Assembly (NCBI GenBank): GCA_951406725.2
Contig: OX597821.1
Span: forward strand, 41,788,001-41,852,000
Source: Octopus vulgaris
Taxonomy: Eukaryota
DNA length: 64,000 nucleotides
Direction: 5' to 3'
How positions within the stretch are numbered: position 1 is the first letter of the stretch; each line of letters opens with the position of its first letter. The position numbers and the translations under genes are program-made. Shown piece by piece: positions 340 through 52,121 of the stretch. The notes beneath the pieces are model-generated. The model worked only from the letters and a program-made list of their open reading frames with translations. It did no database searches and was not told the DNA's origin.

Positions 340-512
340 TTCAAAAGACGAAGACAGGTGGTGTAGACAACAAACAGATGCATTAGTTTAACGTTCGGGA
401 AGGGAAAAAGTCTTTAACGTTTCGAGCCTACGCTCTTCCACAGAAAGGAACACAGAAAGAAACAAGGAGAGAAAATAAAGAATGTGTAGTGGCTAGCCAT
501 CTATCATGGCGA
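340..512 (-). mobile_element. Short microsatellite-embedded repeat, family H1 (Penelope pLTR/retrozyme-like) with hammerhead-like motif at 412-447
   Basis: Reverse complement reads cttt-ctgtgga-a-gagcgtaggctc-gaaacgtt-aaag; homologous to five other copies in the window; abuts (TA)n. Confidence 0.75.
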
Positions 513-1939
513 ATCCGTATATCACATACAAATAATCAGAAAATAAGCTAAAAATGTGGTCCAATCGATGTGTTTGTTAATCTGAGGTTTTCTCCATTTT
601 CTGATTATTTGCATTGGTTCTTGATAAACTCTTGTTTATCCTGTTGTTACTGAACACCAATGCCCGGAGATAACACCGGTAACGGATACCGATAGTATAT
701 ACGGATATTTTATCCCTTAGACGGTTATTATAACCGTTAAGTCTATTTACACAATATGTATACGTATGTATATATATATATATATATATTCCGTATATCA
801 CATGATATATATACATGTATATATATATATAATATTTGTATATCACATGATATATATATGTATGTATGTATGTATGTATGTATGTATGTATGTATGTATG
901 TATGTATGTATGTATGTATGTATGTATGCATGCATGTATGTATGTATGTATGTATGTATGTACGTATGTATGAATGTATAGCGAGAGAGGGGAGAGAGAG
1001 AGAAAGAAGGATAGAGTGATAGATTGATAGTTATACGAGAATGAGGCTAAGTAATACTGCGTATATAACAGCATATGTTATTATGTATCAATATAAGATA
1101 AAAAAAATTGTTGAAAATGTGCACAGACGCAAACTCACACACACACACACACACACACATGTATGTTTGTATGTTTGTATTTGTACCAAAGAGATGTTCT
1201 AATAAAGAATGTTGATATTTTTTAATCAGATTGTATATCCAGAGATAAACAAAGCGAACATAAAAGAAACTACATTAATTTTTATTTTCTTACATTTTCA
1301 TCACGCGTTTTATGATCTCTTTGTGTATCTACAAAACCATCTGTTCAAAATATGAAAACATTTGTTTAGTCTTTGGTTGTCTTTAACAGAGTCCATTCGG
1401 TTGTGAAAATGCCTGCCGGGTTTCGAATCTGAGAATAATTTAATCCCGTCTTTCAAACAGTTCAGGAGTATTGCAAAAGGTCATAGGAGCCATGGGTGCC
1501 GCTGTCTTCCTCGGATTTAGCCATAGAGAATAAGTCCTGTAATGTTCTGCTTATTTCATCATTTTAAAAATTCATAAAGACGGGTAGATAGACAGACAAA
1601 CAGACAGACAGACAGACAGTTAGATAAACAGACGGACAGACAGACAGACAGATATTGAATTAGGTAGGTAGATGGAGAGTGAGAGTGAGAGAGATAGAGA
1701 GAGGCAGAGAGACAGACAGATAGATATTGAGTCAGATAGATAGACAGACAGACAGACAGACAGACAGATAGTTAGATAAACAGACGGAGGGACAGACAGA
1801 CAGACAGATAGGTAGATAGATAGATAGATAGATAGATAGATAGATAGATAGATAGATAGATAGATAGATAGATAGATAGATAGATAGATAGATAGATAGA
1901 TAGATAGATAGATCGCCATATATATATATATATATATAA

Positions 1940-2140
1940 TCATCATGATAGATCGTTAGCCACTACACACATTTTTTTCTCTCCTTGTTTCTCTCCTTGT
2001 TTTTTCTGTCCCTTTCTGTAGAAGAGCGTAGGCTCGAAACGTAAAATACTTTTTCTATTCCTGAGCGTTATACTAATACATCTGTTTGTTTTGTACACCA
2101 CCTGTCTTCGTCTTTTGTAGTTGTTTTTTCGTAAACTCTG
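1940..2140 (+). mobile_element. Family H1 copy, hammerhead-like motif at 2012-2047
   Basis: cttt-ctgtaga-a-gagcgtaggctc-gaaacgta-aaat; lies between (TA)n and (GATA)n. Confidence 0.75.
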
Positions 2141-2357
2141 CCTATAGATAGATAGATAGATAGATAGATAGATAGATAGATAGATAGATAGATAGATAGA
2201 TAGATAGATAGATAGATAGATAGATAGATAGATAGATAGATAGATAGATAGATAGACACGCGCAAATATAAGTATGTATATGTATTTTTATCTTTTATTT
2301 TTTACCTGTTTCATTCATTTGACTGCGGTCATACTACGACATCGCTTTGAAGAATTA

Positions 2358-2568
2358 TTAGCATGCGGGGCAAAATGCTTAGCGGTATTTCGTCTGCCGT
2401 TACGTTCTGAGTTCAAATTCCGCCGAGGTCAACTTTGCCTTTCATCCTTTCGGGGTCGATTAAATAAGGACCAGTTACGCACTGGGGTCGATGCAATCGA
2501 CTTAATACTTTTGTCTGTCCTTGTTTGTCTCCTCTATGTTTAGCCCCCTGTGGGCAATAAAGAAATAA
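2358..2568 (+). mobile_element. tRNA-derived SINE family A, 5'-truncated
   Basis: B-box-like gagttcaaattcc, central gcctttcatcctttcggggtcgat, tail gtgggcaataaagaaata shared with about 15 copies. Confidence 0.85.
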
Positions 2569-2677
2569 ATATAACTGTTCTATGAAGGGGATTAGTAAAT
2601 ATCTTTTGAAATTGAGTAGAATGTAACGAAGTAAGTTATTCTTTTATATGTTGCTATCATTGTGTGTTTTTGTGAAG

Positions 2678-2763
2678 CATCCTGGTTAGGGGAATGTCTG
2701 TTTCATTAAAATATGAAATTTATATCATATTATTGGACGCGTCTCCGAAACGGCCCGTCGATG
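2678..2763 (+). ncRNA. Degenerate type-I hammerhead ribozyme motif in an AT-rich pLTR-like segment (about 2570-3360)
   Basis: catc/gatg stem I, ctggtta (two changes from CUGAUGA), gggga...tctcc stem II, gaaa-cggcccg-tc. Confidence 0.45.
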
Positions 2764-49299: not shown

Positions 49300-50000
49300 T
49301 TATGTATGTATGTATGTATGTATGTATGTATGTATGTATGCATGTATGTATGTAGGTATGTATGTATGTACGTACGTACGTACGTATGTATGTATGTATG
49401 TATGTATGTATGTATGTATGTGTGTATTTATGTATGTATGTACGTATGTATGTATGCACGTATGTATGTATGTATGCATGCACATATGTATATGCATGCA
49501 TGTATGTGTGTATGTATGCGTGTATGTATGCATGTATGTATGCATGTATGTATTTATGTATGCGCGCATGAACGCATGTGTCTATAGATGCATACATGTA
49601 TGTATATGCATGTATGTATATACATATGTATGCAGCATATATGTGTGTTTATGTATATATGTATGTATATGCCTGTATGTATGTATATATGTATGTATAC
49701 ATGTTTATATATGTATCTAAATATGTATATATCCATGGATGTATGTATGCATATATGTATATATGTATATGTGTATATATGCATAGGTATTTGTGTATAC
49801 ATTTATGAATGCATGTATGTATGCATGTATGCGTGCATGTATGTGAGTGTGAATGCTTGTATGTATGCGTCTATGCACTATGCATGCATGTATATATGTA
49901 TGCATGTATGTTTATATGCATATGAATGCATGTATGTATGCATGCGTGTATGTATGCATGTTTGCAATTACGTATATATGTAAGTACGAATGTATGTATA
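49300..50000. repeat. Degenerate (TATG)n tract
   Basis: Direct. Confidence 0.95.
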
Positions 50001-50207
50001 GAGTGAGAGAGGGAAATTAATGTGTGTACGTCTGTGCGCTCCATTTCAAAATCTTTTAAAATAACACTAGAAAATCCAAATGGGTTTCTGTGTGTTACGT
50101 TTCGGCAGATGAACAATTGTAAGCTGATCTTTTGCCGCTGGTATTTATACGTGGTGGACTGGAAACTTAATAGAAGTAGCAAGCATTTATTAATAAAAAA
50201 CAGACTT

Positions 50208-50460
50208 TGACCTGAAATAAAGGAAGGACAGAACACTTGGATAATTTCGTTGGTCCAATCTAGATGCCTGAAAGTATGCGATTGTCATAGCTGGAATATT
50301 TTTTCATTATACATCTGTTTGATCTGGATTAACTTGGTGCTAAACAAAAACTTCCACAGTACAACTTTGTTGCCTGAAATAAAGCGAGACAGTCACGGCT
50401 GGACTATATTTTAATCATTAGTCTTTTTAATCGAGATTGACCTGGCGCTATACAACAACA
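50208..50460 (+). repeat. Diverged tandem units (about 105 bp) of a dispersed repeat also seen near 56080 and inverted near 6720
   Basis: cctgaaa...gctgga...tcatta...gattgacctggcgcta(t/a)acaac recurs. Confidence 0.5.
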
Positions 50461-51492
50461 TTCACTGATTTACTCAGCCAAAAAAAAAAAAAAATTGCAA
50501 TGGCGGAAAACGAAAGACAAGACAAATGAAAGTGCAGACGATCTGATGTCTGTATCAAAATGAAGACTATCTGTTCTCTTGTTAAATCTCTTACACGACT
50601 GTTTTAACATGCACCAAGAAGATGTAAACCAGAAATCTAGCTTTGAACAATTTCGCTTTAATTAATTTTATTACTTTGTTGTTGTTGTTTTTTATTTTTA
50701 ATGTTTGGTATTATCTGAATTTTCATTAGAAGCTTGAGGATAATAAAAATCTTAAATTAGAGTGATTATCCTGTGTGATGTGAATGGATGTGTGTTGTGT
50801 TTTCTTTTAGTTTTTGTTTTTACTTTAAGCGTGTATATATGTATGTCTGTGTGTGAGGAAGTGTATACTCATACACACATATATATATATACATATGTAT
50901 AAATACATATATATATATATATATATATATATATATATATATATATATATATATATATATATACATACACGCACATATATATGTATGTATATCGATATTG
51001 AAAGGAAGTGGAGAAAATAAGAAAGTCGGAGTTACAATATTTGATATAGATTGCGATTCTTCAGTTTAAGTAAACAATACGTACGTATGTGTGTGTGTGT
51101 GGTGTGTGTGTGAGTGTTTGTGTATTTGTACATATGTGACAATGTGAATGTATGCTTGTATGTAATATGTATGTATGTATGTATGTATGTATGTATGTAT
51201 GTATGTATGTATGTATGTATGTATGTATGTATGTATAGGTTTATAAACTAATAGATACAAAACGAGAGGAGGAAAGTGTTTGCTCAATGCCGATAGTAGA
51301 GGGACATAATTCATTAGAAACTGAAAAACTTTGCAAATTTTTACTGCGAGTCTCTCGCAGCCAATTTTCGGACGATTATGAATATCGGTATGAATATCTG
51401 AATGTAAGCATGTGCATATACATATATATATATATATTGGAGTGAAACCAATTAGAAGCTGGAGGATAATAAAAACTATTTTGAATTAAGAC

Positions 51493-51575
51493 GTAACTGA
51501 GGAAGATTTTGCGTAAGAGATGAAATTCCCTCTCGCTCTATATATATATTGCGCAATTACTTGAAACGTAGGTAC
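51493..51575 (+). ncRNA. Decayed type-I hammerhead motif in an insert between (TA)n tracts
   Basis: CUGAGGA 51497-51503; ttgcgtaa/ttgcgcaa stem II; GAAACGUA 51563-51570; stem I weak (gtaa/ggtac). Confidence 0.5.
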
Positions 51576-51916
51576 TAAACGCATTCAAAATACCATTACT
51601 TCCTTTAACTTCATTATTATTCATTGTACGACTCTATGTATATATACGTATGTGTGTGTGTATACATATATTTATGTGTGTGTGTGTGTACATATATATA
51701 TTACATATATATACACATATATATATATATATATATGTGTGTATATATATATATATATATATATATATATATATATATATATATATATATATATATATAT
51801 ACATATATATACATACATATTTATGTGTGTGTGTGTGTCGTCCGTTACGTTCTTGTTCCGTTTTCTAGATTTATATATATATATATATATATATATATAT
51901 ATATATATATATATAT

Positions 51917-52121
51917 CGGCATGATAGATCGGTAGCCACGGCACACATTTTTCTCTCTCCTTATTTCTCTCCTTGTTTTTTTTCTGTGTCCCTTTCTGTA
52001 GAAGAGCGTAGGCTCGAAACGTAAAAGACTGTTTCAATTTCCTGAGCTTTATACTAATACATCTGTTTGTTTTATACACCACCTGTCTTCGTCTTTAGTT
52101 TTTTTTTTCGTGAACTCTCCT
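51917..52121 (+). mobile_element. Family H1 copy, hammerhead-like motif at 51992-52027
   Basis: cttt-ctgtaga-a-gagcgtaggctc-gaaacgta-aaag; (TA)n on both sides. Confidence 0.78.

What the first reader, a model, noticed from the sequence alone, without database searches (positions are those of the whole stretch)
412..52027. Family H1: fixed non-canonical hammerhead core CUGUNGA-A with variation at tolerated positions
Seen: six copies (412-, 2012+, 4096+, 8225+, 25297-, 51992+) read cttt-CTGT(N)GA-A-gagc-(g/t)tag-gctc-GAAACGT(H)-aaag. N7 is G, A or U, H17 is A or U, and loop II varies. GAAACGU and stem II are invariant, and stem I has only single-copy changes. All six have U in place of the conserved A6 and an extra A before stem II. 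Inference: this is either a natural hammerhead core variant retained by selection in the master element or a catalytically dead fold kept for another role such as RT recognition. The 36-nt motif appears better conserved than the rest of the element.
Basis: partly seen in the sequence, partly recalled or inferred. Interest (0 to 1): 0.75.

Follow-up and report, generated by a model that had tools for sequence, protein, structure and literature searches.

The report
Penelope hammerhead with fixed A6U core
About 16,000 copies of a jumping gene in this animal genome carry a hammerhead self-cutting-RNA motif in which one normally fixed core letter is changed throughout the lineage while the rest is kept, so it is likely a weakened but still selected ribozyme, though cutting is untested.

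Summary
Real, and a variant of a known thing. The six motifs lie in ~190-bp 3' ends of an endonuclease-bearing Penelope-like retrotransposon (RT, Cys linker, GIY-YIG; open frames to 826 aa). They are its pLTR minimal type I hammerhead. The extra A is the published norm; U at position 6 is not. Exact 26-mer counts genome-wide: U6 15,954, A6 184, G6 50. U6 sits in both pLTRs of two tandem units. Between four young subfamilies only 2 of 36 motif columns vary (N7, H17), against 40 of 130 flank columns (p=0.002). N7 takes all four bases; H17 is never G as a subfamily state. Sister families keep A6 and show a C-G/G-C swap in stem I. So source elements preserve the hammerhead pattern despite A6U. Cleavage is unshown: published changes at this position lower activity, and 0 of 42 unselected copies start at the cut (also 0 of 28 A6 sisters). 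Selection for U itself is not shown. Reader errors: loop II differs in one copy only; one copy reads CAGU. I found natural A6C but not A6U in print; one key paper was not held. The scan noted a fixed A6U family before in another genome (e1-9559914).

The parts
412..447 (-). Minimal type I hammerhead motif, U6 at 440, N7=G, H17=U at 416
335..508 (-). 5'-truncated pLTR end of the Penelope-like element (N7=G subfamily), followed by (TA)n
2012..2047 (+). Motif, U6 at 2019, N7=A, H17=A at 2043; private change in the fourth stem I pair
1944..2137 (+). 5'-truncated pLTR end (N7=A subfamily) between microsatellites
4097..4132 (+). Motif, U6 at 4104, N7=U, H17=A at 4128
4035..4216 (+). 5'-truncated pLTR end (older N7=U subfamily), followed by (TA)n
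8225..8260 (+). Motif with a private change at core position 4 (CAGUAGA), U6 at 8232, H17=A at 8256
8153..8341 (+). 5'-truncated pLTR end (N7=A subfamily)
25298..25333 (-). Motif, U6 at 25326, N7=U, H17=A at 25302; private loop II change
25208..25406 (-). pLTR end of the youngest subfamily (97-98% to its best 40 hits); homology continues 5' to about 25580
51992..52027 (+). Motif, U6 at 51999, N7=A, H17=A at 52023
51920..52116 (+). 5'-truncated pLTR end (N7=A subfamily) flanked by (TA)n

Best explanation
The motif is the pLTR minimal type I hammerhead of an endonuclease-bearing Penelope-like retrotransposon, U replaces A6 across the whole lineage, and the RNA likely still cuts after H17, but slowly and probably only as a dimer or with the element's protein bound. 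Shown: host element, copy number, fixation of U6, the motif in both pLTRs of tandem units, and between-subfamily variation limited to N7 and H17. Inferred: A6 is ancestral; selection acts on source elements only; what is kept is the three-dimensional core. Predicted: U6 also lets the monomer close a short hairpin (G5-C15.2, U6-A15.1) that would damp cutting further, so most templates stay uncut while reverse transcription, likely primed on (TA)n about 90 nt downstream, runs through the motif. Untested: any cleavage.
For: Host: 5'-extended copies run into RT (YIDD/YVDD), a C-x4-C-x2-C linker and GIY-YIG; open frames of 820 and 826 aa, RVT_1 E 1e-7. Of 20 long-frame loci chosen by the endonuclease protein, 19 have a parsed downstream motif and 19 of 19 have T6; L214 and L217 carry two T6 motifs 4,384 and 4,285 nt apart. 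Counts: T6 15,954, A6 184, G6 50. Four young subfamilies: 2 of 36 motif columns vary against 40 of 130 ungapped flank columns, Fisher p=0.0019; p=0.009 at three finer clusterings, where the longest invariant run (22 nt) is in the motif. The two columns are N7 (four states) and H17 (A/U; C in the oldest subfamily; never G as a subfamily state), the free positions of the consensus in PMC3088659; 1 in 630 for two random columns. Fourth stem I pair: C-G in 171 of 203 U6 copies, G-C in 65 of 78 A6 sister copies. Contigs of 4 runs with 4 organism labels show no other letter at 3% or more at position 6, but variation at N7. Precedent: natural A6C has low but detectable activity (PMC3088659) and is rescued by Mn2+ (PMC7151607); a Penelope hammerhead cuts only with its protein present (PMC11167929).
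Against: No cleavage data. In a pairwise scan all CUGA-region mutants except the C-G swap had low activity (PMC9901934 passage; no value for A6U seen). A6C cut more than 10,000-fold slower in Mg2+ than in Mn2+ at 0.3 mM in one scaffold. 0 of 42 unselected U6 copies begin at the predicted cut; 36 extend past the motif, though 0 of 28 A6 sister copies do either. In the lizard element cleavage is not needed for insertion in vitro and no reads began at the cut. The double-hammerhead helices score -9.9 to -10.9 kcal/mol against -12.6 to -16.8 for two monomers (secondary structure only). One unchanged site is weak evidence of selection, since 90 of 130 flank columns are unchanged too. The stem I swap is one event; stem II shows no covariation.
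Confidence: 0.5

Rival explanations
1. The U6 motif no longer cuts; the fold, or the closed hairpin that U6 permits, is kept as a binding or positioning site for the element's protein, or the DNA is kept as part of the internal promoter.
For: Position 6 changes lower activity. Predicted G5-C15.2 pairing is 0.60-0.96 in the short natural motif of four subfamilies against 0.04-0.21 with A6 in silico. Loop II is invariant within the young U6 subfamilies, as a recognition site would be. No copy starts at the cut. Cleavage is dispensable for insertion in vitro and Naiads thrive without canonical hammerheads.
Against: C3, G8, A9, G12, A13, A14 and U16.1 are unpaired in that hairpin yet invariant between young subfamilies, while N7 and H17 change repeatedly and H17 avoids G. 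With 3' flank included the hairpin falls to 0.07-0.65. A6 sisters also lack cut-site starts.
Confidence: 0.35
2. A6U was a loss-of-function change in one founder; the motif has been functionless since and looks conserved only because few source elements and little time separate the subfamilies.
For: Single copies decay at CpG sites inside the core (G12 10 of 184, 16.2 17 of 184). Only four to six subfamilies were compared and they are related. Other pLTR blocks of 8-13 nt are invariant too.
Against: Flanks changed at 40 of 130 columns plus 29 gap columns while 34 of 36 motif columns did not; the changes fall on N7 and H17; the pattern persists in the oldest subfamilies apart from CpG decay.
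Confidence: 0.1

Closest known systems
Minimal type I hammerheads in pLTRs of metazoan Penelope-like elements (Cervera and De la Pena 2014, PMC4209133; read main text parts 1-2 of 4 and supplement parts 1-2 of 3)
   Same: pLTR location, sense strand, extra base between 9 and 10.1, G10.1-C11.1, palindromic ACGU with no loop III, short stem I, mostly single truncated copies, pairs about one unit apart
   Different: U6; all 56 motifs of their Fig. S3 have A6 (their descriptor required it). The core variant named in their text is U3-A8.
Natural A6C hammerhead of phage Bcep176 (Perreault 2011, PMC3088659, section 8 and passages; Naghdi 2020, PMC7151607, parts 1-2 of 4)
   Same: Natural pyrimidine at core position 6 with the rest of the core intact
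   Different: C not U; a single phage sequence with a full stem III, tested active at low rate; here about 16,000 exact copies in a retroelement, untested
PAc Poseidon element of the green anole (Frangieh 2024, PMC11167929; passages and part 1 of 2 of the main text)
   Same: EN+ Penelope-like element with pLTR hammerhead; insertions run through the motif; AT-rich targets
   Different: Hammerhead shown to cut with protein present; start codon overlaps the motif there, whereas here the likely start lies several hundred nt downstream
Neptune/Nematis clades of EN+ Penelope-like elements (Craig 2021, PMC8557442; passages)
   Same: C-terminal GIY-YIG with a CX2-5CxxC linker; microsatellite target bias
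   Different: Clade not placed by a tree here

Membership tests
EN+ Penelope-like elements | Single ORF with RT and C-terminal GIY-YIG endonuclease | tested here: met
   RT, thumb and IIYC..C..C..LYIG in one frame of 820/826 aa. Pfam RVT_1 hit; Pfam GIY-YIG did not hit these two proteins, but PF01541 is listed for part of the 120 homologues shown.
EN+ Penelope-like elements | Partial tandem forming pLTRs on both sides of the ORF | tested here: met
   L214 and L217, 2 of 20 long-frame loci, motifs 4,384 and 4,285 nt apart; L226 partial tandem
Neptune/Nematis clades | CX2-5CxxC linker before the endonuclease | tested here: met
   C-x4-C-x2-C in L212; definition from PMC8557442
Neptune/Nematis clades | Microsatellite targets | tested here: met
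   33 of 42 unselected copies have a TA run within 60 nt of the 3' end; no shuffled control, and the element end itself carries a short TA run
Neptune clade | Placement in an RT tree with reference elements | not tested
   No named reference set was fetched
Minimal type I PLE hammerhead | Stem I, stem II with G10.1-C11.1, extra base at 9/10.1, palindromic 15.1-16.1 | tested here: met
   stem II probability 0.99-1.00 in the short motif of four subfamilies, 0.39-0.69 with 3' flank
Hammerhead consensus core | C3 U4 G5 N7 G8 A9, G12 A13 A14, A15.1-U16.1, H17 | tested here: met
   Majority state in four young subfamilies
Hammerhead consensus core | A6 | tested here: not met
   T in 221 of 226 copies; 15,954 against 184 genome-wide
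Hammerhead ribozyme | Self-cleavage after H17 | not testable with these tools
   Only contigs were offered, which cannot show RNA ends
Rfam hammerhead families | Covariance-model match | tested here: inconclusive
   No hammerhead hit at E<=10 for a U6 copy or for a canonical A6 sister control, so the models miss minimal forms

The most novel reading that the evidence does not exclude
A naturally active hammerhead with U at core position 6, fixed in a dominant retrotransposon lineage and rescued by its invariant GUAG loop II or by the element's protein, with U6 doubling as a latch that holds the monomer shut until dimer or protein opens it.
Probability: 0.3. Interest if true: 0.72.

Novelty: new variant of a known kind. 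Interest (0 to 1): 0.5.

Why it matters
What Penelope hammerheads do is open: they are conserved, yet weak in vitro and dispensable for insertion in the one reconstituted system. This genome offers a natural comparison: a very successful lineage with U6 beside sister families with canonical A6 or with C4 on the same stem II scaffold. If U6 cuts, the core consensus widens and A6-requiring descriptors miss whole families. If it does not, selection keeps a hammerhead fold without catalysis, which points to a protein-binding role.

Tried and rejected
Rfam on the whole window: the 150 of 494 rows shown were microsatellite-driven, mostly miRNA, matches below gathering score. No RNA holder listed on record; contigs only, so expression and ends were not testable. 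Metagenome pattern scan: 2 hits, both inside long open frames of GC-rich contigs without the repeat flanks, rejected as chance. Viral contigs: no relative. A separate A6 subfamily with the same stem-loop: rejected. The 15 of 184 A6 matches read have flanks of U6 subfamilies or are one chimera, and a flank-only query of the suspect subfamily gave T 19, C 3 among 22 clean non-query cores of 30 loci (5 had no motif, 2 garbled, 1 was the query). A6 exceeds G6 more than the private spectrum predicts (184:50 against 108:62, p=0.001); chimeras, duplicates or sequence context may explain it, not resolved. Within-subfamily rates (motif 122/5,469, flank 782/22,118 non-CpG) were not used as evidence because copies were filtered on the motif and the flanks are homopolymer-rich. 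The oldest cluster's apparent changes at L1, G12 and 15.2 are CpG decay enriched by the query and were set aside. An alternative helix between the 3' strand of stem II and a conserved downstream GAGC block has predicted probability only 0.10-0.34: a lead. No ORF was found upstream of A6 sister copies, so no protein tree roots the change. Random sample: 0 exact 26-mers in 800 kb against 4.6 expected (p=0.01), so copies are unevenly spread and the estimate of about 45,000 lineage copies (13 hits) is rough. Alignment A1 held one reversed row and was not used. Lunse et al. 2017 on PLE hammerhead dimers was not held and may list core variants; supplement figures S6/S7 of PMC3088659 and the data of PMC9901934 were not read.

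Full report
Observation. Profile searches find 6 copies in the window and no more. U6, the extra A, stem II and GAAACGT hold in 6 of 6. One copy (8225) has a private change at position 4, and loop II differs in one copy only (25298), privately. The genome G000 has 2.8 Gb in 227 contigs; an earlier scan note calls it octopus-like, which I did not test.

Host element. A query with a 5'-extended copy returned loci whose upstream DNA encodes RT, thumb, a Cys linker and a GIY-YIG domain. A protein search with the endonuclease gave 13,219 candidates, 150 scored, with open frames up to 826 aa. I fetched 20 long-frame loci: 19 have a parsed motif downstream of the ORF and all 19 have T6; this choice is independent of the motif. 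L214 and L217 carry a second T6 motif 4,384 and 4,285 nt upstream, the partial tandem typical of these elements. Pfam gives RVT_1 only. 669 homologues passed E 1e-20, at 42-56% identity among the 120 shown, with named ones from molluscs, a shark, an urchin and a coral. The CX2-5CxxC linker and TA-rich ends fit the Neptune/Nematis description (PMC8557442 passages); no tree was made.

What is ordinary. Cervera and De la Pena describe this architecture for metazoan pLTRs, including the base between 9 and 10.1, G10.1-C11.1 and the palindromic 15.2-16.2, with weak dimer-dependent cleavage (PMC4209133). All 56 motifs of their Fig. S3 have A6, but their descriptor required it.

What is not. Exact 26-mer counts genome-wide are 15,954 with T6, 184 with A6, 50 with G6 and 0 for reversed controls; C6 was not counted. 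In aligned copies T6 is 204 of 207 in five clusters (308 of 341 hits were aligned, 25 fell in small clusters), 221 of 226 and 32 of 33 in copies not chosen by any query. The 15 A6 matches read belong to U6 subfamilies by their flanks or, in one case, are a chimera with a sister family, so they look like back-mutations. Three sister families share stem II and downstream blocks but have A6 (39, 32 and 5 copies); the largest has C4 in 36 of 39. A6 is therefore the likely ancestral state (inference from sisters and the published set; not rooted by a protein tree).

Selection test. Single copies decay after insertion, including CpG sites in the core, so only differences between subfamilies speak for source elements. 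Among four young U6 subfamilies, clustered on flanks alone, 2 of 36 motif columns vary against 40 of 130 ungapped flank columns, p=0.0019, with 29 further gap columns in the flanks and none in the motif. Finer clusterings give p=0.009 and the same two columns. They are N7, with four states, and H17, with A and U, plus C in the oldest subfamily and never G as a subfamily state. These are the free positions of the consensus (PMC3088659). The fourth stem I pair is C-G in 171 of 203 U6 copies and G-C in 65 of 78 A6 copies, a single double change. Contigs of four runs with four organism labels show no second letter at 3% or more at position 6, variation at N7, and depth peaking over the motif; relatedness of those labels is unknown. 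Limits: few, related subfamilies; most copies were picked by similarity to a query; invariance of position 6 alone does not show that U is favoured.

Mechanism. Published changes at this position are harmful but not always fatal: natural A6C has low detectable activity, is strongly Mn2+-preferring, and CUGA-region mutants were low in a pairwise scan. Folding predicts that U6 lets the monomer pair G5-C15.2 and U6-A15.1: probability 0.60-0.96 against 0.04-0.21 with A6 in the short motif, but 0.07-0.65 with 3' flank. Dimer helices are not favoured over two monomers in secondary-structure energy, for U6 or A6. Of 42 unselected U6 copies with a 3' end, 36 extend past the motif, 4 start inside, 2 start downstream and 0 at the cut; A6 sisters give 0 of 28. 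So templates are mostly uncut in both lineages, as in the lizard element, where cleavage needs protein, is dispensable for insertion in vitro and left no read ends (PMC11167929). I put 0.5 on weak assisted cleavage, 0.35 on a non-cutting fold kept for protein or promoter function, 0.1 on no function.

Novelty. Paper searches for A6U or U6 cores (listings, plus the papers named above) showed no natural U6 hammerhead; the single 'A6U' hit is a twister paper by its listing. Lunse et al. 2017, the largest PLE hammerhead set, was not held, and some supplements were not read, so absence from print is not secure. The scan's own notes hold a fixed-A6U family in another genome (e1-9559914), which is unchecked AI output and not independent support. 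Verdict: new variant of a known kind, interest 0.5.

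Noticed in passing
L031:3083-4560(+) and L031:2307-2666(-): Tandem repeat of about 355 nt, 5 units plus 2 inverted, each with a canonical hammerhead core: looks like a non-LTR retrozyme
   Followed up: no
L231-L260 (centre of each locus): Sister family with C at core position 4 fixed (36 of 39 copies); U4C is known from a viroid. A second fixed core variant on the same scaffold.
   Followed up: partly
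L335:1425-1620: Chimera: 5' part from an A6 sister family, 3' part from the U6 lineage, joined inside the shared motif; suggests template switching there
   Followed up: partly
window 2066-2075 and equivalents: A TTCC(T/C)GAGC block about 25 nt after the predicted cut is kept in all 8 families and can pair with the 3' strand of stem II; predicted probability 0.10-0.34
   Followed up: partly
L340, L351, L354: 3 of 22 clean cores of an old U6 subfamily have C6; possibly a C6 sublineage
   Followed up: no
window about 3680-3930: Imperfect AT-rich palindrome of about 250 nt just upstream of copy 4097, perhaps inverted ends of another element
   Followed up: no
window 20800, 21560, 27460, 28300, 36840, 59740: Several copies of another ~200-nt interspersed repeat, SINE-like by eye
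   Followed up: no
window 23370-23415(+): Degenerate hammerhead-like site with a short hairpin before GAAAC and a palindromic CGG tract; core not intact
   Followed up: no
L088(-) and upstream of the L195 centre: Other canonical A6 minimal hammerheads from unrelated repeat families
   Followed up: no
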